Shown here: in pieces, positions 253 to 20,443 of the stretch
Layout of the letters: each line of letters begins with the position of its first letter
Position numbering within the stretch: the first letter of the stretch is position 1
DNA from: Trypanosoma brucei
Lineage: Eukaryota
Assembly: GCA_000002445.1 (NCBI GenBank)
Contig: CM000208.1
Span: 1,120,001-1,184,000 of the forward strand
DNA: 64,000 bases
Reading direction: 5' to 3'
Position numbers and translations under genes: made by a program
The notes under the pieces: model-generated
Database searches by the model: none
Told to the model about the DNA's origin: nothing
Seen by the model: the letters and a program-made list of their open reading frames with translations, nothing else

Positions 253-1140
253 ATGTCCCGGGCACCTCCACCACCGGATTTTTCACGAATTGCTGCTGAA
301 ATCCGCAAGAGGTTGGGTAATTTTGGTGATATCGCAGGGCTTACAGCTCTGGTCGGTTTTGGGGGATTGGTTTGTGCAGGTTTGTACAAATCCATTTACT
401 TCGTTGATGGCGGCTGCTGCGCGGTCAAGTTTAATGCCATCACAGGTCTGAAAAACCGAACGTACGGCGAGGGAGCCAACTTCGCCATCCCGTTTCTTGA
501 AACTCCTGTTGTGTTCGATATCCGAAATAAGCCAACAGAAGTGCTGACTGCAACTGGGAGTCGTGACCTGCAGACGGTCAACTTGGCTGTACGTGTCCTC
601 TACCAGCCGCACGTGAGCGCCCTCCCCGACATATACCGTAACGTTGGAATGGAATATGCAGAAACTGTGTTGCCATCGCTGGTGAACGAGATTATTCGCG
701 CCGTAATAGCACAGTTCAACGCCTCGGATTTGCTGGTGAAGCGCCCGGAGGTGAGCAACCGGATTGGGGTAATGTTGGCCGAACGTGCCAAGCGGTTTCA
801 TATTGACATTACGGATGTCTCCATTACCCAAATGAGTTTTGGTAAGGAATACACGAGTGCTGTAGAGGCGAAACAGGTCGCCCAGCAGATGGCGGAACGA
901 GCGAAGTGGCGTGTTGAACAAGCGGAACAGGAAAAGGAAGGCGCAATTTTGTTGGCGAAGGGTGAAGCGGAGGCGGCCAAGCTTATTGGAATGGCCGTGC
1001 AGAAGAACCCAGCCTTTATTACGCTGCGAAGCCTTGAGGCGTCCAGGACTATTGCCGATCTCATGCGACAGAAGGGGTCTGGAAGCTTCTACATCGACAG
1101 TGATACCTTGTCTCTGAACACCCAAACTATTGGACATTAG
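253..1140 (+). CDS. PHB: Prohibitin (band-7/SPFH family, PHB2-like), mitochondrial inner membrane
   Basis: 295-aa ORF with an N-terminal hydrophobic anchor followed by an SPFH/band-7 core (…VFDIRNKPTEV…LPSLVNEIIRAVIAQFNASDLLVKR…ITLRSLEAS…) and a C-terminal coiled coil, typical of prohibitins. Starts at ATG. Confidence 0.9.
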   Translation: MSRAPPPPDFSRIAAEIRKRLGNFGDIAGLTALVGFGGLVCAGLYKSIYFVDGGCCAVKFNAITGLKNRTYGEGANFAIPFLETPVVFDIRNKPTEVLTATGSRDLQTVNLAVRVLYQPHVSALPDIYRNVGMEYAETVLPSLVNEIIRAVIAQFNASDLLVKRPEVSNRIGVMLAERAKRFHIDITDVSITQMSFGKEYTSAVEAKQVAQQMAERAKWRVEQAEQEKEGAILLAKGEAEAAKLIGMAVQKNPAFITLRSLEASRTIADLMRQKGSGSFYIDSDTLSLNTQTIGH

Positions 1141-3578: not shown

Positions 3579-4473
3579 ACCCACAACCCTTTTTGTGTAA
3601 AGAGCATTGGCCCATGTAGATGGGGAGCACTGCCATCCGGAGTGCATATGTATTACTTTTTAAAAGAAAAAACAAGAAAACACCGCTAGACTTTCTCCCC
3701 GTCTTTCATATGTATTTATTGTTATTATTATTGCGCACTACTCACCACATCTATTTTGCCCTCCCCCTCCCCCCTCCTTCAGATGATATTAGATCGTTGT
3801 AAAGAGGTAAACCGAAGTTGCAAACTTTTCGTTGCAGGGTCGATGTTGATGTGCTAGAGGCGGAGACACGGCGTTGCCCCTTTGGTCGCTTGGAACAAAG
3901 TGTGGGAGGGCACGCGCATCCTCAGCGCTTTTTGAATTTTTTGCTTGATGTGCCAACCAACGCAACATTTCGTTGAGCCTTTGCGGAAAGGTATTGAACA
4001 ATTCGGTGGAGGGTTGCGATGTTTGTTTGAGCGGTGTTGGAAATGACAGTTAGTGGCGCATGCAGTGACGGGAGCTTTTTTTTGGGGGGGGGTGTAGGGA
4101 CTGTGCAAGAAGAGGGGAATTGTGGAGTCATGTTTCGGGGGTATTACTGCGGTGTTAGTGTCTCAGAAGGGGCGTCGGCCACGCATTTTTACTTCGCAGA
4201 TGCTTGCACACATTGGTATAATCATCCCCGGAGGAATCCAGTAGCTGTGTTCAGCGTGTTTCTTCGTCAGAAGTTTTTTTCTTCTTTTGCGTCGTCAGTC
4301 GCCGCAGGTTTTGTAAGCGGTGATGCAGTTGCAACCAAAAGAAAACCACTTTAACGTAACTGAAGCTGTGTAGTCCGCATGCTTAACTTCCATTTGTGTG
4401 TGCACATAGATCAACACTTCACCGCTGGGGTTATTTGTTGTTTGTTGAGTTTGTAGGAAGGCAACCCCGTGGT

Positions 4474-5580
4474 ATGAGGCGGTGGGCCAGTTACACTTGC
4501 TTCGGTGCCATCACGATGCGGCTCCCCATTCCTAAGTTGGCGGAAAGGCATATGCACTCACCGGCGTCTCTGACGTGTCGAAAGGGAGTCCCTACAAGCA
4601 CGACCGCGGCGGTGGAAATGACTTACTTCCAGGCAATCAACTCTGCGCTCGATCTTTCACTTTTGCGCGACCCGAAGACGGTGCTGTTCGGGGAAGACGT
4701 CTCATTCGGTGGTGTATTCCGTTGCTCACTTGGCTTGGCTAAGAAGTATGGTTCTAAAAGGGTCTTTGACTCACCGCTTTCCGAGCAAGGCATAGTTGGC
4801 TTCGCAATTGGAATGGCTGCCGTTGGATGGAAACCAATTGCAGAGGTGCAGTTCGCAGATTACATATTTCCGGCTTTCGACCAAATTGTTAACGAGGCCG
4901 CAAAGATGCGCTTCCGCTCAGGAGGTCAGTTCTCCTGTGGTGGGCTCGTGGTGCGCTCTCCGTGCTCAGCTGTGGGGCATGGAGGGCTTTATCACTCCCA
5001 AAGTGTGGAGGGTTATTTTAACCACTGTGCCGGTGTCAAGATTGTTATGCCCTCCACTCCATCGGAAGCGAAGGGGTTATTGCTGCAATGTGTTGAGGAG
5101 GAGGATCCGTGTATCTTCTTTGAACCAAAGCTCCTGTACCGCTCCGCGGTGGAACTTGTTGAGCCATCGTATTACACAATACCGCTGGGAACCGGTCGGA
5201 TTGTCCGGGAGGGGAAGGATGTGACTATTGTCACGTATGGAACACAAGTTGCGGTTGCTTCGAAGGCGGCTCAGCGTGCGGAAAAGGAGGGCATCTCGGT
5301 GGAGGTTATTGACCTTCGGTCATTAAAACCATGGGATCGAGAGATGGTGGCGCAGTCCGTTCGGAAGACTGGTCGGGTAATCGTGACGCACGAAGCCCCT
5401 AAAACTAGTGGTTTTGGTGCGGAGCTTATCTCCAGCATCGTCGAGGACTGTTTTCTTTCACTGGAGGCGCCCCCGAAGCGTGTGTGTGGGTTAGACACGC
5501 CTCACCCGTTACATGAGCAGTTGTATTTACCGAATGAGGCGAAAGTATACGAGGCAGTGAAGGAAGTGATCGCGTTCTAG
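4474..5580 (+). CDS. 2-oxoisovalerate (branched-chain alpha-keto acid) dehydrogenase E1 beta subunit, mitochondrial
   Basis: Transketolase-like E1-beta core (…FGEDVSFGGVFRCSLGLAKKYG…RVFDSPLSEQGIVGFAIGMA…KPIAEVQFADYIFPAFDQIVNEAAKMRFRSGG…) and a C-terminal TK domain. The track ORF starts at 4396 with GTG. The first in-frame ATG is about 4474 (MRRWAS…) and is followed by a plausible mitochondrial presequence. Confidence 0.85.
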   Translation: MRRWASYTCFGAITMRLPIPKLAERHMHSPASLTCRKGVPTSTTAAVEMTYFQAINSALDLSLLRDPKTVLFGEDVSFGGVFRCSLGLAKKYGSKRVFDSPLSEQGIVGFAIGMAAVGWKPIAEVQFADYIFPAFDQIVNEAAKMRFRSGGQFSCGGLVVRSPCSAVGHGGLYHSQSVEGYFNHCAGVKIVMPSTPSEAKGLLLQCVEEEDPCIFFEPKLLYRSAVELVEPSYYTIPLGTGRIVREGKDVTIVTYGTQVAVASKAAQRAEKEGISVEVIDLRSLKPWDREMVAQSVRKTGRVIVTHEAPKTSGFGAELISSIVEDCFLSLEAPPKRVCGLDTPHPLHEQLYLPNEAKVYEAVKEVIAF

Positions 5581-8500
5581 GCAATATCGACATTCGTACA
5601 TTTTATTTTTTTTGAGGGATTTACCAGTGACTACCGTGCGTTGTCAATGTATCTGTTTTTCCATACATATCGCTGTACCTCCTGTGTGGCAGTAGAACGG
5701 GTATCAGTGAAGCTTCGGAAAAAATAAAACGTTTACAAACAACCCGAAGCAGAGGTGGTACGGGTTCACACGTGGATCCTGTGGTCACAACCAAATGTCA
5801 GTTTACTCAGCTCGCCTCTGTTTGTCCTTTTTATCTTTACTTGCGCCAACTGGCAATCTGGGGTAGTTGCAGAGAACTCTACTTCCTAGGAGGATTTCCG
5901 GTGTGTGGGGAAGTGATGTCTGCTCGGGTGGTTTCGTAACAAGGATGCGGCTGTTGTTTGGATCACGGCGTCCCTGTCGCTCCAACAGTGCAGCGGTTAC
6001 CCGCTCTTGGACCGATGCCCAAAAAGTAAAAAGCCATGACGGAGAGGAACCGTTGGTCGCTTGAGCTGCGGGACCGGAACCCGAAAAAAAAAGGTCAAAA
6101 TATCAAACAGCACAAATGGGTTTGCGCAGAACGTGGCTTTCAATCTAAGAGTGCAGGTGTACTAACATTGCGCGGGCCGCAGAAACACTACATGACCAAC
6201 GACAGTCCCTTTCCACCCCACACTGGCGGAACCATAATCCACACTGAATATGATAAAAAAACACACTCCAGTGAGGAATCTGTGGGTTCAAATTGATTTA
6301 GCAGAGAGGCTCGACAATACGTCATGGAATAAAGAGCAGAGGTCAGCTTTAGCACATCATTCCAGTGGTGGAGAAACGGATAGGCACACAAAGTGAAAAC
6401 CGACCGCATCAACCCAACACCAATGAACAAAGTGATAACACCACCAGTTCAACCCCTGGAGAAAATGAAGCGATATATGGACCTCGCGGCTACATATTTC
6501 ACACGTAAAATGGACTAGTGATACGTCACGGGATGAAATACTGCGAAGTACAACCGCAAACGGAGTCGCAAGAAATAAAGAGGCAACGGTAACTCGAAGA
6601 GAATGCAAGTATTCCAACTAAGGGCTCCCGAGCGCCGGAAACGAGAGGGCATCCAGTGAACTACCCAGCAGGCACATCTGAGCCGCTACAATGCACGCGA
6701 TGTGGCTTTGTATCACAATCAAAAGGGGGAACAACACCAAACACCAATATTCAACACCGCAGAGGCCATCCCCTGGAGAGTAACGCTGGTACAAAACGGA
6801 GCCGTTCCATCACAGAACAAGAGGTATCCCTCATTTGGGACACGGTAACTATAGGTGTAAATGACACCTGTTGCACGCAATGCCGTCATACGCATGTATC
6901 AAAAGACAGCCTGATGGGGCACTTCGGGGGAATGCATAGACAGCATCCCTTCTCCGTAGCAAAAGAATCTCCACCACCGCTCCGGAGCTTCAACGTCAGA
7001 GGATTTCATCTACACTTCACGTTCGTAAACCGAAATCAGACGTCCCACTCAACATCAGGTTCATCTATACATCGCCATCAAAAAACATGAAATCTGCGTT
7101 GAAAGGAAACATACACACTCCAACGACTGCGAAGGGAATCCCACCCACATACTCGTGCGCTCAAGCCTAAAGTGCTCCGCAGTTACTTCGGGCTTGAGGG
7201 CGAAAATATGCAGAAGATAGTGTTCACCAAGAACCTTGCACAATTCCTCCTAGAACTTGAGAAACCCCTCATTCTCTTCCAACATGTACTTTCTTCATTC
7301 GAGAGGAACACCCCTATAAAGGAGAATAGACTACACAAAAAGCTGCCCACTCCTCTGAATGAAAATTGTAAACTTCACTATGCTCTTCTACGCTTGGCTC
7401 AAAAAAAAAAAAAAGAGGCAGAAGCCTTTCACTCTCAAGTAAGCTGTTTTCGCCATTACGGAAGACCGAGGACTAAAAGCTGAACGTTTGCAACTGGTCA
7501 CGCATAACTAGTTCGGACATAACCTACAAATGTCTTCCGTAAAGCAAATATAGTGCGCTCCAACCTAGATGGCAATTCGTTGACGGCACGTCCACTGAGG
7601 AGCATTATAAAAAAAAAACGTTTAAGCGATTGAGGTCGCGACGACACAAGCAACTTGTACAGCGACCTCATAGATAATGAAATCGCCACCATCATTCGAT
7701 CAGCCGCACGACCGGCCGCCAGCAACGGCAGTAATGGGACGTGAAGATCGCTTTGATGCGCGTTTCACCCTAATCCAGTTTCGAGTGTAGCGTATTCCCC
7801 TTTGCGCTTCTGCTTTATGTCTCCCACCAAAATATCAACGATGCATATTAGGTGCACAGTTCTGCCCTTGTTTTCTTTGATTGCAATCTCATCTGCTATT
7901 CCACTGTTTATCCAAGCAACGTGGTGGGAGAAAATAAGCTGCACCGAAATCACCGCATTCCTTTTACTGACTGTGAAAATCACCCTTCCATACACAGCGC
8001 GGGATTCCATCCTCCGCGCGACTCTGTCTTTCATTGTTTCCAGTAACGTATTTAGCACCTTTTCAATTGGCACCGCTTCCGCACAATGACTGCATCCCAG
8101 TATTCAGATGTCCCTTTAATTCTGTATTCTTCCATGTTGCCGAAGATTACCGTTTCTGTGCCCGATGAAGCGTCTAAACTCACCAGTTCATTTGTTCAAA
8201 CGTTTCAGTCCTTATTGAATATCCCCATTTTTTTCGGCGTATGAGCCCTCCTCCATTTGTCTTTTGCGTTTGCTTTTATACCCACCCACGTATGGCAAAT
8301 TTGTGTACACTCTGGAGCCAATGTCCAAGGAGCTTTAAGTATGGAGTGCACCTTGATTTTTGGTGTCGGAGCACCAGACCTCCACTGAATTCAGCCATTC
8401 AGGTATTGGATGACTTCTAGGATATTGCCGGTTTATTATGTCTGAAAAGCATCCTCTTTTGGCGCTTGATTGCATGTAATATTCCGTCGCCCTCGTGTTT

Positions 8501-11500
8501 GCCGCTTTTCAAACAAATATCAGTCGTGCTTTTTTGAGCATGTCTTGTTTGTTTGCGTGCGACGAAATCTCAGCAATGTTGCCCACCAACTGGGGTTGGA
8601 TTCTTTTGTGGACTGGGTACGTTTCCTTTGCCATCCTGCACGGCCGTAGCGGAAAAACACGACGAGGGGATGCTGTTCTCGAGTTTTTGCTTTGTCTACC
8701 ATCTGTGTGTCTTCGTCCGCTAAAATCAACAATGCTCTGGAGAATCTGATCCGAGACCGGGCCTCAGCACAGCAGTGGGGAGTTTGAGATCCTTTGCAAG
8801 ATTTGCGGCATAACACAAGTGAAGGAACCGAGACCTGAATTTGGCAACCGAAAGGAGGATGAGGTGGCGGGGTTTGAGGCGATTGTGGGTGTTGACGGGA
8901 TCGCGGCAATGCCGGAACAACATGGAAGATGCCGTCAAAAAGACGATTAACATCTGCAGTGAGGTGGCAAAGAAACACAGCATTACAGCTCGTAGGGATG
9001 ATCGACGGAAGCGGAAAGTGTGCGGCAACGCTAGAAGAGATGTGTCACATTGGAACGGAGGCGGTGCGTGATTCCAGGAAAACGGGAAGTTGTTGGGACA
9101 ATTAAACCGGTGCTACCGGTAACAATATCGGTGCCCCAAGGGATGCAGAGCTTGAGAGAGCAACAGAAATGTTGGCAGGCGATAGCGATCCCATGAGCCC
9201 CATAATCACTTTAAGGAAACGTTTCACTGGACGATTTTGAGAGGAAAGGAAACGCGAAATCTGGGCGTGGCAGCCACATTGGCCGCTAGCAAGGAATGAT
9301 TTCAAGTTTGGGCGGAATATTTTACGGAAATGAACGAAACTGCATCCGGAACGAATCATCAGGAAGAACTAAGCCCTAAGACCAGTTTCCCTATTAAAGT
9401 TTATTTACCATTGACCTCACAAAAATTTTGAAACTCAACGGTGAATCTAGCGGCTTTTCGGCTACTCCCCCAGACCTGGAAAAAAAAAACAGTTTCCCTG
9501 AACCCGAAAAGCTCTGCCCGCTCAGCAAACTTACGCCATGCACAATCCCGTGAAGGTGACACATCCCCAAAACACTCTGCACAGCCCATTTCGCTGGACT
9601 GCACACTTCTTTCATACCGCTAATATTTTCACCCCTAAATTAACGTGCCCGGACACTCACATGTATACCTGTAAAATTATGCAAGTGCTTTGACGAAGCT
9701 ACACCCACGTTGTGTTGGGTGCTTTTGTAATCCTATGGTGTTCAGCGCTCTCCCATACTTTAAAAAGCATACTACGCCGTTGTTTTTAGTACTACACCCT
9801 TCCCGTTTCCATTGGCACGCCCTCCGTAGTGGCATTTGCCGCCAGAATCCCTGTTCTAGAGGAGGTTTGTTGCATTTTTACGCTTCTTTCGGTAGCGGCC
9901 GTTTGTACGCACAGGGTGGTGTACATGCGTATATGTAGTGGTTGTTATTTTTTATGGAAAAAAAAAGCTGTTGAACCCTGTGACTTTAAGGTGCTGAAAA
10001 TAAGATTGGGACGAGGTTACATCTTATCCGTGGATAACCTTATAGGTGTGGAAGTGGGGGGACCATTCTCGAGAGTTACTTGGGGGTCAAACACACATAC
10101 AAGCGGCAGGCAAATACACTGAAAGGGGTGTGCCCGTGTTGGTGTTTGTGTGTGCGCGCAAATGTCGCCCCTGGCGTTTTTAATGGATATGTAAGCTTTG
10201 AAAGCAACCTCCTAGGGATTTGAAACATCTGTTGGATTCTGAAACTTGACAATTTCAGACTCGCGCAACACTGAGTAGCCTTTTTGACTTACTTACGTTT
10301 TGTGACCAAGCGGAGAAGTGAGGGAGACGCGATGGCGAAGAACCACTTCTTCAGATTCACTAGTTGGGGTAACAAAAGTTCCAGCCCCCTTTCAGGCGTA
10401 GTGAACAGCGGAGGCACAACTAATGAGGGCGGTGGATTCTTCACCAACTTCGACCCACCTCATTAAAATGAATGCCTCCTTACCGCGCCAACGCAACGGC
10501 AGGTGGCTAAATCGCGCATATTTTTGTGCCCATTCCCTCGCCACACAACTCTATGAAAATATCTTCCTCGAGGAGCTAATGGGAAAACATATCTCAGTCA
10601 CCATTTGCGAACGCAACTTCGTATGTTGAAGCGGGGGTTGTGTGAGGTGGGAACCGCGAAGGAAAGGTTGTACGTTGTGGTGGCGGTTGTGAGGTGGCGC
10701 TGTTTTTTTTTTCCTCCCTTTTTTTCTTGAGTGGGGATTACGGGGTTGCCGGTTCGTGGAGTATTATAACGCATGCTTTCCACCTGTAAGCTGCGGTGGT
10801 CCTCCTTTCCCCCAATCATCTCGCCCCGTACGGACAATAATGGAAGTGAAGTTTGTTTTGAGTGTGGCGTTGTCAGACCATTTGGAGGAAGTTATAGTTA
10901 AGGGATATAAGTCCCCGTGGAGAAAGTAAACGCCTGTCCAAATACTTATTCTATGTCACATTGTACGGAAACGCCACCACCCATATACTGGTCGTACCGT
11001 CAGTTGAAGTTCTCCATCCTGGCGTCAACGAAGTGCTTTTAAGGGTTCTCCTAGCGTCTAAACTCGTCCACTTTCACTGATGCCGTTTGGGTACACTCCC
11101 TCCAACCCAACCTTAACTAGCCTCTCTACACACCGCTTCATATCTTCAAACACATTTTTGTACCACCGTGAACTTTTGTTCTACACCTTTATTATGACAC
11201 ACATCCGTAGGAAGTAGCATCCCCTCTCCGCCACAAAAAAAGAAAATTATTGGGTGCGACAGTGTTCCCAGTATAATGGCTCTCGCCATGTGTTTTTTGG
11301 TTTTATTTTTCAGTGAGCCGTTCGCAAAGGTGTATTTCCTCCTCCGTAAGCTTGGCCTGTGCTACAAACATTGATACGATATCATAATATTTCCACATAA
11401 CCCCCTCAATATCATGACTACCTCCCCACATGAACCACATTTGCTCCGATAAGCGCCTTCCCACACCCACACACACCCCCCACACACACACACGCTGACT

Positions 11501-12323
11501 GAAATCTTAAACTACATAGGGGAATACCCTATTTGCATCACAGCGAAATTCACCTTGGCTGTGGGAACCCCACCGAACAACTTCACGCTTGCAAATTTAC
11601 TCGGATCACAACGGATACTTAAAAATTTTCCCAACACAACTACATTCCACACCGCAGTGTGGCACCCCACGAGGTGTCCAAAATGAACATCCTCTCAATT
11701 TTCCTTATTCCTCACATACTTACAAAACAGAAGAGAAGCACATGCGGGGAGGAGGGGGGGGCGAGGAAAGATGCACCCAACCCATTTCCATCGGATATCA
11801 TAAATCACCAGGGGTAACTTGTTCTTTTTTTTTTTTTAAGTCTTCCCAAACCCTCCCCAAATATCAAAACGCCCCCCCCCCCAGCCCACAACACCACCAG
11901 AAATTGGTGGCAGAAATCGCTCCCCTCCCTTTCCGGTCTTTTCGTTGGCCGGTGAAGTGCAGAATGGAAAACATCACGTCGAGTTCACCTTCACTACGCA
12001 CCAACTATCCGCACTCTTCGCCTCCACAACGATGCGGTACATCCTCAGAACCCCACCACCTCCAAAAAAGAAGGCGGTGATGGAATGTTATTATCCCTGT
12101 CTTTCCTTCTTTTCCATCGTGAATATTAGCGCTATCAATAATACCCTCACATAATATCTCTACACAAGCCCATTACAGACACCGCTTCAGCTAGTTTTCA
12201 TCCCTTTGGCGGTATATCTCGATGGGGAAATTATGCGTCATTCACCCATGATATCATCACAACAAGTAAACATACCACACACCAATTCGGAGTGTCAGAG
12301 AATGTGGTATGATGTTGTTGGGT
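5581..12323. other. ORF-poor convergent strand-switch region (putative Pol II transcription termination zone)
   Basis: Plus-strand genes end at 5580 and the minus-strand gene array ends at 12324, so transcription converges here. Across about 6.7 kb no ORF looks protein-like. The sequence has complex composition with scattered homopolymer tracts and no tandem repeats. Confidence 0.5.
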
Positions 12324-13493
12324 CTACTTTTTATTCAGAGGTCCAATAAGCCACCGGGGGTTCGCGGCGTTTGAAACGTTGCAGACAGTACTAAATTTTA
12401 CGTACTTACGAGAGCCCCACACGGTGTGGATTTCAGTAGTATAACGTTCCAACAAGTATTTGTACGCTTCCCGTTGGGTGGAAGAGTCCCGTAGTGCCCT
12501 ATACCAACTCGTCTCGTTGATGAATTGGAGCATCTTTTCGCTTCGAGCGGCGGGTGGGCCTGGGAAGTGCAAGATCATGCCATTTTTAACCGGCACCCCG
12601 GACGGATAGTGAAAATATCGTGTCTCGTAATCGAGAGACATTATTCCCCTTCGAAGCAACAACTTTCGATTCGCATGTTTTGGCCTGGTAACACTCCATA
12701 TAAACACCATTGTCCACATGCTCTGGTCGCACCACCACTTGAAACTCCGTCGTTTCAGAGCGAAGAAAACCTCCAAAGCTTCCTTTAGTGCCCACACTCT
12801 GGCTATCATCCCTCCTCCATTAAGGTGTGATTCCCCCGAGGGAGTTTCCCTCAAAAGAGCTTGCGTTCCCTCTTTAATGGAAACCGCGAGTGCTCCCTCA
12901 TAGAGGTTCATACACATATCCCTCGGTTTAACCTTCCGAGTGTCTACACCCGTCATGATATACGTTTGTGGGGCATGGCAATTCTTTTCAGCGGCGAATA
13001 ATAACGGTGGTGCCATTTTCCCATGAAGAGTGTCTTCCTCGCTAAACAACTCTCGCGTGCTCGGTGTTGTGTTCATAAAATACTCGATTGCTTCTTCTCT
13101 TCTCGCTGCTTCTGAGAAGAACGTATCGCCGCCGTCAAATATCACCATCACATCATTATCCTGCATCCTCTTCCACAACATATACTTTCGAATCCACGCC
13201 CACCTCCATGCATGCACATAAACCGCACCTGCGCCCACCGTCGCAACTCTCACATTTGTAAGAACAGAACTCAGAAGCATTCGACACCACCCTGGGGAAG
13301 GTTTCGTTTGCACCACAACATAATACACTCCTGGCGAATGGTCATTTAAACTACTATTTTTCACCCACCGCTTGGCCTCCCTCTTCCTGAAATCCATTAC
13401 CCCCATAAACATTAACACAATCAACAGCATTACCGCCGCCATGACATATAATCTTTTTCTCGCATCTCCCCCAACCCAGGGCCCCTTTAACAT
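12324..13493 (-). CDS. Type II membrane protein, putative Golgi glycosyltransferase-like (GT-A fold?)
   Basis: Short cytosolic tail, a single transmembrane segment (VMAAVMLLIVLMFMGVM), then a large lumenal domain with a DxD-like motif (VMVIFDGGDTFF). The track ORF starts at 13703 with TTG through a polypyrimidine tract. The first in-frame ATG is about 13493 (MLKGPW…), preceded by a polyY tract and AG. Confidence 0.45.
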   Translation of the reverse strand: MLKGPWVGGDARKRLYVMAAVMLLIVLMFMGVMDFRKREAKRWVKNSSLNDHSPGVYYVVVQTKPSPGWCRMLLSSVLTNVRVATVGAGAVYVHAWRWAWIRKYMLWKRMQDNDVMVIFDGGDTFFSEAARREEAIEYFMNTTPSTRELFSEEDTLHGKMAPPLLFAAEKNCHAPQTYIMTGVDTRKVKPRDMCMNLYEGALAVSIKEGTQALLRETPSGESHLNGGGMIARVWALKEALEVFFALKRRSFKWWCDQSMWTMVFIWSVTRPKHANRKLLLRRGIMSLDYETRYFHYPSGVPVKNGMILHFPGPPAARSEKMLQFINETSWYRALRDSSTQREAYKYLLERYTTEIHTVWGSRKYVKFSTVCNVSNAANPRWLIGPLNKK

Positions 13494-13570
13494 AAACCAA
13501 CCTTTCTCAGAAAAATGAAAAGAAAAAAAGAATACAGAAAAAGATTTTACAACAAAACAAAAAGGCATAA
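13494..13570 (-). promoter_or_regulatory. Polypyrimidine tract + AG: putative trans-splice acceptor region for the glycosyltransferase-like gene
   Basis: The minus strand reads …ctttttgttttgttgtaaaatctttttctgtattctttttttcttttcatttttctgagaaaggttggtttATG. Confidence 0.45.
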
Positions 13571-13910
13571 ATAAGCAATATCCATACAGTCTCGATTCAT
13601 TGGAGGAGAATATGAGATAAGTGACAAACATGCCTCCACCGCAATATGGAACCACAACAACAAAAAAAAAAAACATCACCCGTTTAGTATATATAAACCA
13701 CAAAAAGAAATTATAGCCGCCTCCAGGGCAGCGTGTACGTATATTACGCTATAAATTGTAATGGAAATATATTTATTTAAAATAACGTTTGAGGATATGC
13801 GCTTTTGTATTCCACCGGAGAAGCGGATGCATACATATACGCATACACATATATACACTATGGTATACACAAAATAAAATAGCAAATTCGAATAAGAATA
13901 AAATAGTTGT

Positions 13911-14651
13911 TTACGCTAAAAGAAAAAAAGGGATGAGAAACATTGCTTTACCAGCATTTGAAGAAAAGTGGCATGTGTTGGTGACCGGTGCAGGTCGCGG
14001 TGACTCCGTGGGACCGGGTGCCTCATTTGATGCATTTGTGGTTCCTTTTTTACCAACTTGAGTCTCTTCTCCATCTTTTCCCTTTCCCTTTCCATTTCCA
14101 TTTCCATTTTCTCCTTCTCCTTCTCTTTCTTTTTCCTCTTCCTTTCCTTTCCCACCAGATCCGCTTTGAACTTTACCACTTTCCGCTTTATCGTTTTTAC
14201 TGTCACTTCTTCCCCCTCCAGCACCATTTGTTGTACTCTTTTGTTTTTCATTGGTTGCGGGTTTACACACATCCACACCCCAGTTTGCATTGGCGTGTCC
14301 GACACCGTGCGGATTTACGTTCCCTCCTCCACCGGGAAAAGCTTGCGTCAATGCACCGATGTCACAAGTGTAGTTTCGGTGATCTCCCGGATACGGAATT
14401 TCTATTATACAGAAGGGACTCCGCTCATTACTGACTTGTTGGGCCGCATGGAATCGACAGTTTGTCCGGACATATTTACACAAACCGGCGATGCCCGCGG
14501 GCCCTTTATCCTCCTGCATAGTTTTGACATCAGGACAGGGAGGCGGTCCCAATGGTGGGTCCACTTCTCCCATTGGATATTGGACCACATTTCCTCTTCC
14601 AAATAATACCGACAGTTCAATTAACACAAGCAACACTTTCAGGTTATTCAT
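13911..14651 (-). CDS. Small secreted Cys-containing protein with a G/K/E-rich low-complexity stalk and C-terminal GPI-anchor-like signal (tandem copy A)
   Basis: N-terminal signal peptide, a mature domain of about 100 aa with 6 Cys, a G/N/K/E-rich linker (…KGKEEEKEREGEGENGNGNGKGKGKDGEE…), and a C-terminus of small residues then a hydrophobic tail (…SSNAGKAMFLIPFFLLA). The track start at 14657 is TTG; the ATG is 2 codons in. Confidence 0.6.
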   Translation of the reverse strand: MNNLKVLLVLIELSVLFGRGNVVQYPMGEVDPPLGPPPCPDVKTMQEDKGPAGIAGLCKYVRTNCRFHAAQQVSNERSPFCIIEIPYPGDHRNYTCDIGALTQAFPGGGGNVNPHGVGHANANWGVDVCKPATNEKQKSTTNGAGGGRSDSKNDKAESGKVQSGSGGKGKEEEKEREGEGENGNGNGKGKGKDGEETQVGKKGTTNASNEAPGPTESPRPAPVTNTCHFSSNAGKAMFLIPFFLLA

Positions 14652-15052
14652 TTCCAAACTTCCTGAAAACCAAAGTCACATTTTAAAAAAAAAAACACCA
14701 TTGGAATATTTTCATTCATACAACACAAGCCCTCACATTAAAACATCATTCACAGCAGTATGCTTTTAAAAATAGTGCATTGGGTTGAAAACACTACACT
14801 TTGAAGAACAAAAAACATCACCCGTTTAGTATATATAAACCACAAAAAGAAATTATAGCCGCCTCCAGGGCAGCGTGTACGTATATTACGCTATAAATTG
14901 TAATGGAAATATATTTATTTAAAATAACGTTTGAGGATATGCGCTTTTGTATTCCACCGGAGAAGCGGATGCATACATATACGCATACACATATATACAC
15001 TATGGTATACACAAAATAAAATAGCAAATTCGAATAAGAATAAAATAGTTGT

Positions 15053-15772
15053 TTACGCTAAAAGAAAAAAAGGGATGAGAAACATTGCTTTACCAGCATT
15101 TGAAGAAAAGTGGCATGTGTTGGTGACCGGTGCAGGTCGCGGTGACTCCGTGGGACCGGGTGCCTCATTTGATGCATTTGTGGTTCCTTTTTTACCAACT
15201 TGAGCCTCTTCTCCATCTTTTCCCTTTCCCTTTCCATTTCCATTTTCTCCTTCTCTTTCTTTTTCCTCTTCCTTTCCTTTCCCACCAGATCCGCTTTGAA
15301 CTTTACCACTTTCCGCTTTATCGTTTTTACTCTCACTTCTTCCCCCTCCAGCACCATTTGTTGCACTCTTTTGTTTTTCATTGGTTGCGGGTTTACACAC
15401 ATCCACACCCCAGTTTGCATTGGCGTATTCGACACCTGTCGGGTCGCGGTCGTCGCCGGCAGGAAAAGCTTGCGTCAACTCACGTGTGTTGCATGTGTAG
15501 TCACGTTTATCTCCCGGATACGGAATTTCTATTATGCAGAAGGGACTTGGTTCATCCGTCATTTTTTCGTTTGCGCCGACCCGACATTTGGTTTTCACGA
15601 AATTGCACACATTTATGACACCATCGGGCCCCTTGCTCGCTTCCCACACGTAAGCGGGGGGACAGTGACCCGGTCCCAATGGTGGTCCTTCCACGGGATC
15701 TTGGGCCAAATTTCCTCTTCCAAATAATACCGACAGTTCAATAAAAACGAGCAACACTTTTATGCTATTCAT
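15053..15772 (-). CDS. Small secreted Cys-containing protein with low-complexity stalk and GPI-anchor-like signal (tandem copy B, divergent ectodomain)
   Basis: Same architecture as copy A, with identical signal peptide, stalk and C-terminus. Residues about 25-125 are only about 50% identical to copy A while the 6 Cys positions are kept. Confidence 0.6.
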   Translation of the reverse strand: MNSIKVLLVFIELSVLFGRGNLAQDPVEGPPLGPGHCPPAYVWEASKGPDGVINVCNFVKTKCRVGANEKMTDEPSPFCIIEIPYPGDKRDYTCNTRELTQAFPAGDDRDPTGVEYANANWGVDVCKPATNEKQKSATNGAGGGRSESKNDKAESGKVQSGSGGKGKEEEKEREGENGNGKGKGKDGEEAQVGKKGTTNASNEAPGPTESPRPAPVTNTCHFSSNAGKAMFLIPFFLLA

Positions 15773-17029
15773 TTCCAAACTTCCTGAAAACCAAAGTCAC
15801 ATTTTTAAAAAAAAAACACCATTGGAATATTTTCATTCATACAACACAAGCCCTCATATCAAAATACCATTCACAACAGTATGATTTAAAAATAGTGCAT
15901 TGAGTTGAAAACACTACATCATGCATAGCAGCGTGTCCACCGAATAACCCAATCCCACAATCACCATTGATTACACGTGGGAGACACCCACTAACAAGTG
16001 TGGTTATTTAACCTTTTTTTTTAAAAAAAAAGACGTTGTCATAAGTAAAAAAAAAACAGAAACACAAAGGCACACACACACACGTATTTATTTATTTATG
16101 TACGGGGAAGTAACTTTTATTTCATGTGGGCAGTATTAAAAAGACGACAAAATTGCGTAAAGAGGAGAGGCAGGAAAAGGAATTATGACAAGAATACAGA
16201 CACATGCATCTCCAACAAAATGTTATTGCAGCCGAGGGGCTCAGACATGTTTTAGGGGAAATACATAAAACACGGGCCCTTCTCTATGGCCAATGATTCA
16301 GAGGAAAAAGAAACAAAAAAAACAAAAAGAAACAACATATGCAAATCAACGAGCAGAACTGGAGGACAAAACAAATGACAGAGAGTACTTCAACTTCTTT
16401 TTCATTAATCCCCCCCCTTCCGTCCCGCACGAGTGGGATAAAAGTAACAAACAACTCGGCAACCAAAGTTTTTTTTTTAAAAAAAAAAGACTTCGTTTAA
16501 CAGAAACAAAAAAAACAAACAAAAACACACAATTATCTGTTAGAGGAATGGTCACGTAACCAATAAAACAATGCACTCATCCGAGACGAAGGATTTAACA
16601 AGCTGACAAATAAACGATACATAAAACCTCACGCAGCCTTTTGTTTAGCAAAAAGCCGAGTCGCAACAGGGCTCTATTAATTCGTTTTCATTATTGAGGT
16701 GACATGATAGTGAGACAATATCCATATAAGGATGGAAAGACACACAAGCACACACAAAAAAACAAACAAGGAAAGTTAATTACTTCTATTATGAAAGTAG
16801 AGTGCCCGGTATATCGCAGTTCTAACAACGATAGTGCTGTGAATTTCATGTAAACAGTTGGGAGTTAAACAACTCTGTGCAACATCATTGTGAGTTAAAG
16901 ACATACGCACATATTCTGTATTATCCATCCTCATCATTCTGCTACTTTCCAGTCATCTCTCCATCTCTATATATTTCTTTTTTTTTCTTATCTTATGGGA
17001 TAAGAGACATCTGGTTCCATATTAATACA

Positions 17030-17521
17030 TCAAAGTGGAATGTTGTGTAGATTTGGGCATTTGTGTGTGTCCGTTACTTCTGAGGAAATGGCATTTGTGT
17101 GATATCGCAATTTTAAATTCCACAGCACTTCACGTGTCGTTTCCTTGCGCTTAAGCGAATGGAGAAGAACTTCCACCTCCAGGTGTCCTTCATTTTCTCT
17201 TCCCACCACTGCGTAACTAAATTGGCCGCGCCATTTTCTCCTAATCAAATCATCTTTGAAGAATTTCATGAAGAGATTTCCCACACGATCGATCTCGCTG
17301 TGAGTTTGTGGGACTTTACACTTCTCTACCCATATTTCTTTTCGTGTTTCTGCCGGACTCCCAATAATATGATGAACAAATAAAGCCCATTCATCCTTTA
17401 GTGTGGCGGCTACGGGATTTCTTTTTATCATTTCCTCTAATTCGCTACAATCCGCCTCTGACATGTTTGGGGCGGGTGTTTCCCGCCTAAACTTTTTCAT
17501 AAACTTGCCGAAGAAACTCAT
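17030..17521 (-). CDS. Hypothetical protein (about 160 aa)
   Basis: ORF on the array strand with a polypyrimidine tract upstream. The track start is TTG. Candidate ATGs are at about 17521 (MSFFGKF…), about 17500 and about 17464. No recognisable domain. Confidence 0.4.
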   Translation of the reverse strand: MSFFGKFMKKFRRETPAPNMSEADCSELEEMIKRNPVAATLKDEWALFVHHIIGSPAETRKEIWVEKCKVPQTHSEIDRVGNLFMKFFKDDLIRRKWRGQFSYAVVGRENEGHLEVEVLLHSLKRKETTREVLWNLKLRYHTNAISSEVTDTHKCPNLHNIPL

Positions 17522-19085
17522 TAAAGGAAAGGAAAAACAAAACAAAACAAGTTCACAAGCTGCTACGGAAATCTTCGCAAAAGAAAAGAAAAGAAAAAAA
17601 GGGAAAAAATGTACTGCGTGAAGAAGAAGAAGGAAAGAAAGAAGATAAGGAATATAAGGAATATAAGAAAAGCGTAGAATGAAGCAGAGACTTCCCCATC
17701 TTATCCATCATATATATATATATATATGAACAAGCGCTCATAACCCCACATTAAATAAACAAATTTGCATACACACTCGAACATGTGCAAACGACAAGAA
17801 AAAAGGGGGGAAAAAACTACCCTCATCTCAACGCCAAGACTGCCGGTACTCCTTGTTTTTTCTTTTGCTGTTGTTGTTACTGTTGTTTCTTTTCTTTTAA
17901 GATAACAGAATAAACACCGGCTCAAGCCACAACCGTCCATACAATAATCACTTTATCTCTTTCTCTCCCTCCTTGCTTCAAGCAAATCTTGCCGCCACCA
18001 CATGGGAAAGAGAAAGAAAGAGACACAGAGAGAAAGGGTGAGTTGGAAAACAAAAGAAAGAAAGAAAGAAAGCAGAAAAAAGAGGAAAAAAATAAATAAA
18101 TAATAGTGATATTAATAACGAACAAGTAAGCACATGAAAGGATGAAAGACAGGTGTTAAATACACATATAACAGCCCGTGCTCATGTGCAAACAAAACAC
18201 AAACAAAAGGAAGGAAAAGAAAAAGAAAAAAAAGAAAAAAAAGAGGGGGGGACGCACAAATGTAAGTAAGCAAAGCGAATAGTGAAAATGCCGACTCGCA
18301 CAAACCAGCGGTGGACGCCCTCACGCAAAAGCCACACGCATCAATACCAACAGTGGGGAAGGGGAAAAAAAAAACAAACAAAAGAGAAAAGAAAAAACAA
18401 AAAAAAACAAAAACGAGATCACCCCTCAGCCAAACCGCAAAGCGGAAAAGTAAAAAAAAAAAGGTGGGGAGTAATATGTTAATTCTGATAAAAACAAAAA
18501 CAAAGCACACGCAAAATAGATGCACTACGCAGAGGTCAAATAATGAAGTATCATTTAACAGATACGACAAAGATAAACAACCAAACAAAAAAGATAACAA
18601 TAACAATAGTAATAGTAAGGAAAATAACATAACACAAGTAAACCGCAAAAAAAAAAACGCCAAAAGAAAGCAAAAAAAAAAAGTACAGCAAGGAATGTGT
18701 GTAAAAGTACGGTAATCGACCAAAACCAGCGGTCCACCGTGTTGCTCCACACGCATATTTTGCCAACCGCCCACCTCCATCATCACCGCCTCCTCTCCAA
18801 TGAGGAAAAAAAAAAAAAGAAAAAAAAACAAAAAAAAAACTACCCTCCTTCCCCTCTTTGTTTTTTTTTGTTTTGGATCATCCCCTGCATTAGCCACAAT
18901 TGCTGTGCGTTTGTGTATGTGTGTGGGTAAATGAATATTTACAGAATTATTATTATTATTACTACTTTCCCCCACATACCACTATTGCAAAGAAACAAAA
19001 AAAAAAAAGAAAACTGTAACAAAAACGCAGTGTACGCATACATGTTACACAAGTATAAATGTATATATGCGTGTGCGTAGGAAGA

Positions 19086-19088
19086 ACT

Positions 19089-19118
<30 letters not shown>
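19086..19118. repeat. (TA)n microsatellite (about 15 units) in the long intergenic region downstream of the PUF gene
   Basis: tatatatatatatatatatatatatata, read directly. A shorter (TA)9 lies at about 17711-17728. Confidence 0.85.
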
Positions 19119-19120
<2 letters not shown>

Positions 19121-20443
19121 TATTATTTCCTCAAGAATTTTGTCTTCTTCTTCTTTTAGATAATCAAAGACATTACAACAGTGATGAAGCACGTTGTGAG
19201 CATATTTCATGCAGGGGACGGGATGAGGTAAGGAGGAGTTAAAAGAAAGAAAGGAAAGAAAGAAAAAAAAAAGAAAGGGAGAGGAAAGATAAAAGAAGCA
19301 AGCAAAGCAGGAAGCAGGAAGCAAAGAAAAAGAAAGAAAGCAAGAAAAAAGCAAGAAAAGTTGCGCAAAGGTCAGGTACATGGTGACTTAACCAGACTTC
19401 GATTTGGGGTGGAGGAGGAGAAAAAAAAAACAGATGGAGAATCGGAGGGGTGAGAAGAGTTTTTTTCTTTTTTTTTCTTCCTTTGTCGTTGATGTTGGTG
19501 TCGCGGTGTCGAGGTGGAGGGAGGGCGCCGGGGGGAGAGGGAGACAGAGAGAGGATTTTTTTTTTAAAAAGGGAAGGAACGTTAGGCGCTGTGGCTGCCG
19601 GATCCCCCTTTATTACGTTTGTTCTTTTTTTTTTCTTTTTTGTTTCCCTCTTTTTTCTCATTCTTACCTTCCTTCCACGCAGCATCTCCTTTCGTTTCGG
19701 TCTCACACGTACCTCTTTACTTCCTTCTCGTTAAACTCCTTTTTCTTTTTCTTCCTTTTTTTTTATTTTCTCTAAGATGCTCCAGCATCATGGTAGCAGA
19801 ACCGACAATGATACTGGCTGATGTTGCGGGAAAGAAAAGAGAAGATAAGAAACAAGGGGGTACCCCAGTTGTTCTTTTCTTCCTTTGCTTTATTAGTTTC
19901 ATTTGTTTTTTTTAGTTTTTATCTTAATTTTGCGCCGCCGTTGTTGCTGTTGCCACACACCTCCCTCCGCTCCCCTACCTCCATTTCACCGAGTCAATAC
20001 AGTTTTGAACAGGCATACACATACAACAAAAAAAAACAATCAACGCCACTGTTTTGATTTTTTTTCTTTTTACACAGTAACGATGTGCTGCACAGCTCTT
20101 TTCGCCTTGCAGCACCACGTACACATACGCATTACATCGCAAATTTCCCTCGTTACAACGTGTTTAACGAAAATTTTCCTTCTTTCACTAAGAAAGCAAA
20201 CAAACAAACAAACAAGCCCTTGCCCAAGTTTTATTTCATTAGAAACAGTTTTTCTCTAACGCCTAACTTTCGCAGTCTTGACTTCCCTCATTTCCGCACC
20301 TGTTTGCTCCCATCCCCATCCCCATCGCCATTCCCATTCCTTTCATCCTTTTTCTTCCTCTTTTGTATGTGTTTTCCTCTTCCTCATTCGTCAGTCCATT
20401 TCTTCCTGTTGTCGTAACCCCTTTTCTCTCCATGAGCCTCCCA

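What the first reader, a model, noticed from the sequence alone, without database searches (positions are those of the whole stretch)
5581..12323. 6.7-kb gene-free convergent strand-switch region with complex sequence and no tRNA
Both flanking transcription units run into this interval, so it should be a Pol II termination zone. It is unusually long, contains no ORF with protein-like character, no tandem repeats, and no tRNA-like A/B boxes that I could find (trypanosome convergent regions often carry tRNA/Pol III genes). The sequence is compositionally complex rather than simple filler: an A+C-rich top strand around 6300-7700, GT-rich blocks near 10640-10760, and homopolymer runs (C12 at about 11871, A14 at about 7405). 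It could host unannotated ncRNAs (snoRNA cluster, lncRNA), a decayed gene or retroposon remnant, or very long 3' UTRs of the flanking terminal genes.
Basis: partly seen in the sequence, partly recalled or inferred. Interest (0 to 1): 0.55.

Follow-up and report, generated by a model that had tools for sequence, protein, structure and literature searches.

The report
Known trypanosome transcription-termination zone with gene relics
This 6.7-kb stretch is where two opposing gene arrays meet on Trypanosoma brucei chromosome 10; it is an already catalogued transcription stop zone that holds no working gene, only decayed gene copies, so it is ordinary for this organism.

Summary
The window is T. 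brucei TREU927 chromosome 10 (window coordinate = Tb927_10_v4 coordinate minus 1,120,000). Plus-strand genes end at 5580 (BCKDH E1-beta) and minus-strand genes begin at 12324 (an ESAG3-like gene). The 6,743 bp between them hold no tRNA, no Rfam match, no Pfam domain in any frame, no real tandem repeat and no ATG ORF above 112 aa.

The interpretation as a Pol II convergent termination zone is supported, and it is already published. Kolev 2010 ends the two transcription units at these genes. Tschudi 2012 lists the site as CTU38, a DCL2-dependent source of small RNAs from both strands. Reynolds 2016 flags the three loci it lists here as close to H3.V and base J, and RNA over the middle of the interval rises 12-fold when base J is depleted.

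Three tiny annotated ORFs lie inside the interval. They look spurious.

Two new details emerged. A decayed, frameshifted ESAG3-like pseudogene sits at about 10700-11715 on the minus strand. An 0.82-kb segment (7759-8577) is an 86%-identical non-coding copy of DNA found beside the chromosome 6 procyclin locus.

The interval diverges faster between subspecies than the flanking genes, so its sequence appears unconstrained. Interest is low.

The parts
5581..12323 (.). Convergent strand-switch region and Pol II termination zone (Tb927_10_v4 1,125,581-1,132,323; inside CTU38 of Tschudi 2012).
   Evidence: ORF layout. Coordinate mapping and transcription-unit ends. CTU38 small RNAs. H3.V and base J flags, and the rise on J loss.
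4474..5580 (+). Last gene of the + transcription unit: 2-oxoisovalerate (branched-chain keto acid) dehydrogenase E1 beta. It is Tb10.70.2900 and, by inference, Tb927.10.4330.
   Evidence: Pfam Transket_pyr and Transketolase_C. 100% identical to the T. brucei protein P0001. Kolev Table S14 ends the + unit at Tb10.70.2900.
12324..13493 (-). Last gene of the - transcription unit: ESAG3-like gene, Tb10.70.2860 = Tb927.10.4370. The likely true start is the ATG at 13493, because the spliced-leader site maps at 13505, inside the annotated ORF.
   Evidence: Kolev Table S1 row and header. ESAG3 family homologues. Tb427.10.4370 is annotated as ESAG.
11299..12323 (-). 3' UTR of the ESAG3-like mRNA, which extends about 1 kb into the interval. 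The 3'-most mapped poly(A) site is at 11299.
   Evidence: Kolev 2010 Table S1: transcript 3' end at 1,131,299. A T-rich tract on the - strand at 11233-11246 lies just downstream. Reading that tract as the polyadenylation signal is inference.
10700..11715 (-). Decayed ESAG3-like pseudogene of nearly full length, with in-frame stops and at least one frameshift. It lies about 600 bp 3' of the intact ESAG3-like gene on the same strand.
   Evidence: ESAG3 profile match: hmm 258-310 at 10992-10840, 12.4 bits, E 1.7e-5, with a colinear weak piece at 11240-11028. Null: maximum 3.2 bits in 300 simulations, and no more than -0.6 bits in other window chunks. tblastn of P0127: aa 1-285 at 11715-10894 (52.8 bits) and aa 165-340 at 11237-10710 (49.3 bits), against a null maximum of 30.8 bits in 200 simulations.
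7759..8577 (.). Diverged non-coding copy of a dispersed T. brucei-group segment. It is 86.4% identical to DNA next to the Tb927.6.550 homologue, downstream of the chromosome 6 procyclin locus. A partial copy lies in a third locus.
   Evidence: HMMER hit P0130 led to Logan contig L004. blastn against T. b. equiperdum loci L005 and L006. All six frames are about equally similar, so there is no coding signature.
6914..7090 (+). Annotated small ORF Tb10.70.2890 (inferred Tb927.10.4340), 58 aa. Probably not a gene.
   Evidence: Listed as giving no detectable transcript (Kolev Table S2). The enclosing ORF 6656-7090 has non-coding codon usage, -0.136. One gap column breaks the frame in T. b. equiperdum.
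8520..8702 (-). Annotated small ORF Tb10.70.2880 (inferred Tb927.10.4350), 60 aa. Probably not a gene, but useful as a reporter of read-through RNA.
   Evidence: No detectable transcript. Codon score of the enclosing ORF is -0.079. 12 of 183 nt and 7 of 60 aa differ in T. b. equiperdum. RPKM goes from 2.2 to 27.2 on J depletion in strain 427.
11742..12080 (+). Annotated ORF Tb10.70.2870 (inferred Tb927.10.4360), 112 aa. It lies antisense within the ESAG3-like 3' UTR. Probably spurious.
   Evidence: Exact match to XP_822684.1, a singleton cluster. No detectable transcript. Codon score -0.144. Two gap columns and two in-frame stops in T. b. equiperdum.
10640..10760 (+). GT-rich block (74% G+T) that includes a T/C tract at 10703-10728. 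It sits at the 3' edge of the ESAG3 relic.
   Evidence: No function was tested.

Best explanation
The interval is the convergent strand-switch region where two RNA polymerase II polycistronic units of T. brucei chromosome 10 run into each other and stop. The + unit ends with the BCKDH E1-beta gene. The - unit ends with an ESAG3-like gene.

Shown for this locus:
- The units converge here.
- No discrete spliced and polyadenylated transcript was mapped inside the interval in procyclic cells, apart from the roughly 1-kb 3' UTR of the ESAG3-like mRNA.
- The three loci Reynolds 2016 lists here (two small ORFs in the interval and the ESAG3-like gene) are flagged as within 10 kb of histone H3.V and base J.
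- Steady-state RNA over the interval is low and rises, 12-fold over its centre, when base J synthesis is blocked.
- Small RNAs from both strands accumulate here and depend on Dicer-like 2.

Inferred from the published general model, not tested at this locus: J/H3.V chromatin, acting with the JBP3/PNUTS/PP1 complex, slows and releases Pol II. The residual transcription from the two sides overlaps, pairs into double-stranded RNA and is diced into siRNAs.

The DNA is not built for this job. It is a patchwork of decaying lineage-specific sequence. I identified a dead ESAG3-like copy and a diverged copy of a segment also found beside the chromosome 6 procyclin locus. The rest is of unknown origin. 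The primary sequence appears to evolve without constraint.
For: - Gene layout.
- Organism and coordinates.
- Transcription-unit ends: Kolev Table S14.
- The three annotated ORFs are in Kolev's 'no detectable transcript' table.
- No novel transcript lies between window 4341 and 1,242,678 on chromosome 10.
- ESAG3-like transcript 3' end at 11299.
- CTU38: 310 small RNAs in wild type (130 top, 180 bottom) and 9 in dcl2-/-. CTU37 and CTU39 match the neighbouring convergent junctions in Kolev's coordinates, which supports the assignment.
- Reynolds 2016 S4 Table: Tb427.10.4340, 4350 and 4370 have wild-type RPKM 2.1, 2.2 and 7.1. They rise 2.4-, 12.2- and 1.6-fold on DMOG. All three are flagged H3.V = Yes and J = Yes.
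- Ouna 2012 describes Tb927.10.4380 and 4390 as 2-3 kb from a convergent stop area.
- No tRNA, Rfam or Pfam feature.
- ESAG3 relic.
- Dispersed segment.
- Mismatch rate between TREU927 and T. b. equiperdum is 2.57% in the interval, against 0.27-0.68% in flanking coding sequence and 1.23% in a nearby intergenic region.
Against: - All chromatin, RNA and small-RNA evidence is taken from published tables, not computed here.
- The H3.V and J flags mean 'within 10 kb', come from strain Lister 427, and rest on the gene-ID correspondence Tb10.70.28x0 = Tb927/Tb427.10.43x0. I inferred that correspondence from two anchors, PUF1 and the ESAG gene.
- I did not establish whether the Reynolds mRNA-seq was strand-specific, so the direction of the read-through over Tb427.10.4350 is unknown.
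- H3.V knockout alone lowered Tb427.10.4350 RNA (0.88 against 2.22). J and H3.V therefore do not act identically here.
- CTU38 is a weak siRNA locus: 45 normalised reads, against more than 1,000 at several other CTUs.
- About 4.9 kb of the interval (5581-7758 and 8578-10699) has no identified origin.
- The lncRNA catalogues of 2022-2023 could not be checked.
Confidence: 0.85

Rival explanations
1. The interval hosts unannotated functional non-coding RNAs, such as a lncRNA, a snoRNA host or another structured RNA. Its length would reflect those genes rather than termination alone.
For: - The interval is long and compositionally heterogeneous.
- T-rich tracts that could direct RNA processing occur on the - strand between 6700 and 10000 and on the + strand between 10700 and 12100.
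- More than 1,400 lncRNAs have been reported for T. brucei, mostly intergenic. I could not read that catalogue.
Against: - No Rfam family matches, even at E<=5, and there is no tRNA.
- Kolev 2010 mapped no novel spliced and polyadenylated transcript in the interval in procyclic cells.
- Wild-type RPKM over the annotated ORFs is about 2.
- Sequence divergence between subspecies is higher here than in a neighbouring intergenic region.
Confidence: 0.1
2. The interval contains a real but fast-evolving protein-coding gene: one of the three annotated small ORFs, or the 113-codon ORF at 7765-8103 (-).
For: - ORF 7765-8103 (-) has the best codon-usage window in the interval (0.125). Only 3% of simulations reach that value, and it exceeds every off-frame window of real genes.
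- That ORF stays open in T. b. equiperdum.
- Tb10.70.2880 also stays open there and was called as a gene.
Against: - No homologue turned up among word-sharing candidates.
- The only HMMER hit among 1.84 billion proteins is a 53-aa fragment from a paralogous non-coding copy, where the frame is broken.
- tblastx identity to that copy is about the same in all six frames.
- Two of the three annotated ORFs are disrupted in T. b. equiperdum.
- None of the three gave a detectable transcript, and their codon usage is non-coding.
Confidence: 0.03
3. The interval is a decayed retroposon insertion (ingi, RIME or DIRE) or a centromere-like repeat domain, as found at some trypanosome strand-switch regions.
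For: From general knowledge only: degenerate retroelements and centromeres sit at some strand-switch regions in T. brucei and T. cruzi. About 4.9 kb of the interval has no assigned origin.
Against: - No reverse transcriptase, endonuclease or RNase H domain in any frame.
- No tandem repeat array.
- No A+T-rich core; GC is 47%.
- No repeat shared with the rest of the window.
Confidence: 0.04
4. Besides termination, the region serves as an ORC-bound site or replication origin, as reported for the boundaries of many T. brucei transcription units.
For: The idea rests only on general knowledge that ORC1/CDC6 binding sites concentrate at transcription-unit boundaries.
Against: Nothing in the sequence bears on it, and no tool here could test it. 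Only a minority of boundaries fire as origins (general knowledge).
Confidence: 0.1

Closest known systems
Convergent strand-switch regions (cSSR), also called transcription termination sites, of T. brucei. They are marked by H3.V, H4.V and base J (Siegel 2009, from my own knowledge; Reynolds 2016 PMC4721609; Schulz 2016 PMC4721952).
   Same: - Two Pol II units converge here.
- The three loci Reynolds 2016 lists here are flagged near H3.V and J.
- RNA rises when J is depleted.
- Steady-state RNA is low.
   Different: Nothing essential differs. This site carries no Pol III gene. H3.V knockout alone did not raise RNA over its centre.
siRNA-producing convergent transcription units (CTUs) of Tschudi et al. 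2012 (PMC3447711).
   Same: This is one of them, CTU38. Its small RNAs come from both strands in similar numbers and depend on DCL2 but only weakly on DCL1.
   Different: It is a low-output member: 45 normalised reads, against 4,152 for CTU1 and 4,888 for CTU11.
Chromosome-internal ESAG3-like genes and pseudogenes of T. brucei.
   Same: The relic at 10700-11715 aligns over about 340 of 390 residues with ESAG3-family proteins. The alignment includes the membrane anchor and conserved motifs.
   Different: It is far more decayed than annotated ESAG pseudogenes, at about 25% amino-acid identity. It shares no 12-mer with the adjacent intact gene. It was not among the GeneDB v4 features I could read for this interval.
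Region downstream of the chromosome 6 EP/GPEET procyclin locus, next to Tb927.6.550.
   Same: It shares an 0.82-kb segment at 86% identity with window 7759-8577. It also lies beside a convergent junction.
   Different: Only this segment is shared; the flanks are unrelated. The chromosome 6 copy is part of a 2.8-kb unit duplicated at a third locus.

Membership tests
Kinetoplastid convergent strand-switch region / Pol II termination site | Two polycistronic units on opposite strands point towards each other with no gene between them. | tested here: met
   ORF layout. Kolev Table S14 unit ends. The three annotated ORFs inside look spurious.
Kinetoplastid convergent strand-switch region / Pol II termination site | Enrichment of histone variant H3.V (and H4.V). 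| tested here: met
   By look-up only. Reynolds 2016 S4 Table flags Tb427.10.4340, 4350 and 4370 as within 10 kb of H3.V. The data are from strain 427. No peak coordinates were seen, and H4.V was not checked.
Kinetoplastid convergent strand-switch region / Pol II termination site | Presence of base J. | tested here: met
   By look-up only. The same table flags all three genes as within 10 kb of base J.
Kinetoplastid convergent strand-switch region / Pol II termination site | Read-through or increased RNA when the marks are removed. | tested here: met
   Tb427.10.4350 goes from RPKM 2.22 to 27.2 with DMOG (12.2-fold), and 4340 rises 2.4-fold. H3.V knockout alone gave no rise for 4350. The strand of the RNA is unknown.
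siRNA-producing convergent transcription unit (Tschudi 2012) | Small RNAs from both strands that depend on DCL2. | tested here: met
   CTU38, Tb927_10_v5 1,123,000-1,138,000: 130 top and 180 bottom reads in wild type, 9 in dcl2-/-. The assignment assumes v5 coordinates are close to v4. The neighbouring CTU37 and CTU39 support this.
ESAG3 family (as a pseudogene) | Significant colinear similarity to ESAG3 proteins over most of their length. | tested here: met
   Profile hit of 12.4 bits against a null maximum of 3.2. tblastn 52.8 and 49.3 bits against a null maximum of 30.8, covering aa 1-340.
ESAG3 family (as a pseudogene) | Reading frame disrupted. | tested here: met
   Several in-frame stops, and a frame change between the two colinear alignments.
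ingi / RIME / DIRE retroposon remnant | Reverse transcriptase, endonuclease or RNase H coding remnants. | tested here: not met
   Six-frame Pfam scan at E<=1 found none. Non-coding RIME sequence could not be tested.
T. brucei centromere | A+T-rich tandem repeat array (CIR147-type). | tested here: not met
   TRF finds only a 34-bp CA microsatellite. GC is 47%.
tRNA / snRNA / snoRNA cluster at a strand-switch region | Detectable Pol III or snoRNA genes. | tested here: not met
   ARAGORN finds none. Rfam finds none at gathering score or at E<=5.

The most novel reading that the evidence does not exclude
siRNAs made from the dual-strand transcribed interval might act in trans. The 0.82-kb segment at 7759-8577 shares 96 exact 21-mers with its copy beside the chromosome 6 procyclin locus. 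siRNAs from CTU38 could therefore target transcripts there, or the reverse, linking two termination regions through RNAi. A related possibility is that the J-dependent 12-fold rise in RNA over the centre of the interval marks a regulated cryptic transcript rather than mere read-through.
Probability: 0.04. Interest if true: 0.5.

Novelty: already known. Interest (0 to 1): 0.12.

Why it matters
It matters little beyond tidying the annotation. The site is one of about 50-70 catalogued convergent termination regions of T. brucei, and it behaves like the others.

The useful outputs are practical:
- The three small 'hypothetical protein' genes in the interval (inferred Tb927.10.4340, 4350 and 4360) are probably not genes. 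Changes in their RNA should be read as read-through reporters.
- The interval contains an apparently unannotated ESAG3-like pseudogene.
- The interval contains a segment duplicated near the chromosome 6 procyclin locus, which can cause ambiguous mapping of short reads.
- The finding illustrates that ends of transcription units collect decaying lineage-specific genes.

Tried and rejected
- A dicodon (hexamer) coding score trained on the window's genes overfitted: held-out real genes scored like non-coding DNA. I replaced it with a cross-validated codon-usage score.
- The best coding-like stretch, 7498-8103 (-), had no homologue among word-sharing candidates. Its single HMMER hit turned out to be a non-coding paralogous copy. 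I rejected it as a gene.
These are the - strand between 8103 and 6621 and the + strand between 8714 and 10071.
I repeated the scan with X in place of stops.
- The exact T. brucei BCKDH-beta protein is not on record in the contig index.
- The T. cruzi locus L002 never appeared in the script sandbox. Only its ORF list was inspected.
- tblastx against T. melophagium L001 found only the BCKDH-beta gene.
- blastn and tblastx of the interval against the rest of the window found nothing except the ESAG3 hint.
- The GC-skew pattern suggested a hidden -/+ divergent pair inside the interval. I found no support for it beyond scattered coding-like patches, and no transcription start is listed there.
- The polypyrimidine-tract census was confounded by purine-rich coding sequence and is not diagnostic.
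- The lncRNA catalogue of Guegan 2022 has no supplement held.
- The Schulz 2016 supplements contain no Tb427.10.43xx entry.
- I skipped a PDB sequence search of the frame translations because Pfam had already covered that ground.
Full report
**Identity of the window**

The last + strand gene, 4474-5580, encodes a protein 100% identical to the T. brucei 2-oxoisovalerate dehydrogenase E1 beta subunit. The 112-aa ATG ORF at 11742-12080 (+) is exactly XP_822684.1, 'hypothetical protein Tb10.70.2870' of T. brucei brucei TREU927.

Kolev et al. 2010 (PMC2936537), Table S2, places Tb10.70.2870 at Tb927_10_v4 1,131,742-1,132,080. Window coordinates are therefore chromosome 10 (v4) coordinates minus 1,120,000. 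The same tables place Tb10.70.2890 at window 6914-7090 (+), Tb10.70.2880 at 8520-8702 (-) and the ESAG3 gene Tb10.70.2860 at 12324-13676 (-).

Two anchors tie old and new gene IDs together:
- PUF1 is Tb10.70.2800 and Tb927.10.4430.
- The ESAG gene is Tb10.70.2860 and Tb427.10.4370.

These give a linear correspondence: 2870 = 4360, 2880 = 4350, 2890 = 4340 and 2900 = 4330. This mapping is my inference. It agrees with the product names seen for each ID.

**Check of the observation**

All long ORFs up to 5580 are on the + strand. All long ORFs from 12324 to the end of the window are on the - strand. The gap is 6,743 bp, against a median of 348 bp and a next-largest gap of 1,251 bp in this window.

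Nothing that marks a gene was found in the gap:
- No tRNA anywhere in the window.
- No Rfam family at gathering score, and only two chance-level matches at E<=5 in the interval.
- No Pfam domain in any of the six frames.
- No tandem repeat beyond a 34-bp CA-rich microsatellite, and no meaningful dispersed repeat within the interval.
- A longest ATG ORF of 112 aa. The longest stop-free stretch is what simulated sequence of the same composition gives.

The one caveat is that the public annotation places three small ORFs in the interval.

**Are those three ORFs genes?**

A codon-usage log-odds score was trained on 19 long genes of the window and checked by leave-one-out. It gives every real gene a positive in-frame mean (0.008 to 0.18) and a negative value in every other frame. 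The three ORFs, or the longer ORFs that enclose them, score -0.14, -0.08 and -0.14.

All three are in Kolev's list of annotated ORFs without a detectable transcript.

In the T. b. equiperdum assembly the interval has the same size, 6,750 bp:
- Tb10.70.2870 carries two gap columns and two in-frame stops.
- Tb10.70.2890 carries a frameshifting gap.
- Tb10.70.2880 stays open, but 7 of its 60 residues differ.

I regard all three as annotation artefacts, with Tb10.70.2880 the least certain.

**What the published data say about this site**

- Kolev Table S14 ends one Pol II unit at Tb10.70.2900 (+) and the facing one at Tb10.70.2860 (-).
- Kolev's catalogue of novel spliced and polyadenylated transcripts has nothing on chromosome 10 between window 4341 and coordinate 1,242,678.
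- The ESAG3-like mRNA has its 5'-most spliced-leader site at window 13505 and its 3'-most poly(A) site at 11299. About 1 kb of the interval is therefore its 3' UTR.
- Tschudi et al. 2012 (PMC3447711) surveyed 49 convergent transcription units. CTU38 (Tb927_10_v5 1,123,000-1,138,000) brackets this interval. It gave 130 top-strand and 180 bottom-strand small RNAs in wild type, 181 in dcl1-/- and 9 in dcl2-/-, which is 0.6% of wild type after normalisation. The neighbouring CTU37 and CTU39 coincide with the neighbouring convergent junctions in Kolev's v4 coordinates, so I consider the assignment safe.
- Reynolds et al. 2016 (PMC4721609), S4 Table, lists Tb427.10.4340, 4350 and 4370. RPKM values for wild type, DMOG, H3.V knockout and knockout plus DMOG are below. 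All three are flagged as within 10 kb of H3.V and of base J.

| Gene | Wild type | DMOG | H3.V knockout | Knockout + DMOG |
|---|---|---|---|---|
| Tb427.10.4340 | 2.07 | 5.07 | 3.49 | 7.11 |
| Tb427.10.4350 | 2.22 | 27.2 | 0.88 | 9.19 |
| Tb427.10.4370 | 7.12 | 11.5 | 8.45 | 16.1 |

- Ouna et al. [quoted passage not shown]

**What the DNA is made of**

A tblastn of every protein of the window against the interval gave one hint. Residues 328-360 of the ESAG3-like ORF translation (residues 258-289 of the 389-aa protein) matched 10989-10891 on the - strand.

I collected the family: eight homologues, including T. b. equiperdum, T. b. gambiense, four TREU927 paralogues and two T. cruzi ESAG-like proteins. 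I aligned them, built a profile and searched the six frames of the interval.
- The - strand gives a 12.4-bit match (E 1.7e-5) for profile positions 258-310 at 10992-10840.
- A colinear weak match for positions 168-245 lies at 11240-11028, in another frame.
- In 300 Markov-2 simulations of the interval the best score was 3.2 bits. In six other 6.7-kb chunks of the window it was no more than -0.6 bits.

With the paralogue P0127, tblastn aligns residues 1-285 to 11715-10894 (52.8 bits) and residues 165-340 to 11237-10710 (49.3 bits). The null maximum was 30.8 bits in 200 simulations. The alignment runs through the membrane anchor and the conserved motifs, and it passes several stop codons.

This is a nearly full-length, heavily decayed ESAG3-like pseudogene. 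It lies about 600 bp downstream of the intact gene on the same strand, which reads most simply as the dead partner of an old tandem pair. It shares not even a 12-mer with the intact gene.

A second piece came from the best coding-like stretch, the 113-codon ORF at 7765-8103 (-).
- It had no homologue among word-sharing candidates.
- It had a single hit among 1.84 billion representative proteins: a 53-aa fragment on a Logan contig.
- That contig is 99.7% identical to a T. b. equiperdum chromosome 6 region. The region carries the homologue of Tb927.6.550, downstream of a procyclin gene and next to a convergent junction.
- Window 7759-8577 is 86.4% identical to that region. A shorter piece, 7757-8011, is 83% identical to a third locus, which shares 2.8 kb with the chromosome 6 locus.
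- Translated similarity is about the same in all six frames, and the frame is broken in the other copy.

This is a non-coding dispersed duplicate, not a gene. The remaining 4.9 kb has no assigned origin.

**Constraint**

Mismatch rates between TREU927 and T. b. equiperdum:

| Region | Mismatches |
|---|---|
| Interval as a whole | 2.57% |
| 7001-8500 within the interval | 4.1% |
| Flanking coding sequences | 0.27-0.68% |
| Intergenic region 3579-4473 | 1.23% |

There is no sign that the primary sequence is conserved.

**Synteny**

In T. cruzi and T. melophagium the + side is syntenic up to the BCKDH-beta gene (Band 7, CFAP99-like, a hypothetical gene, then BCKDH-beta). Beyond it the T. melophagium contig ends after 3.1 kb. 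The T. cruzi sequence turns into G+C-rich DNA with ORFs in many frames. The junction therefore coincides with a break in synteny filled by lineage-specific material. This fits what is generally known of trypanosomatid strand-switch regions.

**Mechanism**

Shown for this locus, from sequence and from published tables:
- The two units converge here.
- There are no discrete processed transcripts apart from one long 3' UTR.
- The flanking genes lie close to H3.V and J.
- RNA increases when J is depleted.
- Small RNAs from both strands depend on DCL2.

Inferred from the general model in the cited papers: J/H3.V chromatin, acting with the JBP3/PNUTS/PP1 complex (PMC7055916), impedes Pol II. The residual overlapping transcripts form double-stranded RNA that DCL2 dices. 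The function of such siRNAs is unknown, and they did not affect mRNA levels at the two CTUs tested.

**Verdict**

This is a correctly observed and correctly interpreted but already known feature. The pseudogene and the duplicated segment are small additions to the annotation. Interest is low.

Noticed in passing
window 13911-14657 and 15053-15778 (-): Two tandem paralogues of 248 and 241 aa, which are Tb927.10.4380 and 4390. They are published as T. brucei-specific candidate GPI-anchored surface proteins and rise 39-fold and 7.8-fold after CTR9 RNAi. T. b. equiperdum appears to carry only one copy: the blast alignments reuse one 1.1-kb unit and only one gene is called.
   Followed up: partly
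window 7759-8577 compared with L003 and L005: Within the segment shared with chromosome 6, TREU927 and T. b. equiperdum differ at 51 of 808 sites (6.3%). At 41 of those sites the chromosome 6 copy agrees with TREU927. This suggests ectopic gene conversion between the two loci, or an old divergent haplotype.
   Followed up: partly
window 3579-4473 (+): T. cruzi and T. melophagium have a 322-324-aa gene between the CFAP99-like gene and BCKDH-beta. T. brucei has only a 106-codon ORF there, at 4034-4354. Kolev 2010 mapped a novel transcript, Tb10.NT.50, at 3783-4341. The gene may be truncated or diverged in T. brucei.
   Followed up: no
window 12324-13703 (-): The annotated ESAG3-like ORF starts upstream of the mapped spliced-leader site at window 13505. 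The real start is probably the ATG at 13493, giving 389 aa. The T. b. equiperdum gene model is also longer, at 435 aa.
   Followed up: partly
window 13500-20000: The last 7 kb or so of the - transcription unit is markedly A+T-rich, with GC 0.34-0.44 against 0.48 for the window. It is full of long A-rich and T-rich tracts and holds short lineage-specific ORFs with weak codon-usage scores.
   Followed up: no
window 43106-45646 and 46266-48806 (-): Two ORFs of identical length (846 aa) lie 3,160 bp apart, each with the same 215-aa antisense ORF. This looks like a tandem gene duplication.
   Followed up: no
L005 8643-11423 and L006 8634-11423: A 2.8-kb unit carrying the 'T. brucei spp.-specific protein' gene (the Tb927.6.550 family) is 95% identical between the chromosome 6 procyclin-locus region and a second T. 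b. equiperdum chromosome.
   Followed up: no
L002 13500-21107 (T. cruzi) and the end of L001 (T. melophagium): Downstream of BCKDH-beta, T. cruzi DNA becomes G+C-rich with long overlapping ORFs in several frames on both strands, as large surface-gene families do. The T. melophagium contig stops 3.1 kb after the gene. Synteny ends at the same junction in all three species.
   Followed up: no
window 253-1140 (+) and 283-1137 (-): The Band 7/SPFH gene has a nearly full-length antisense ORF of 284 aa. This is most likely a composition effect.
   Followed up: no
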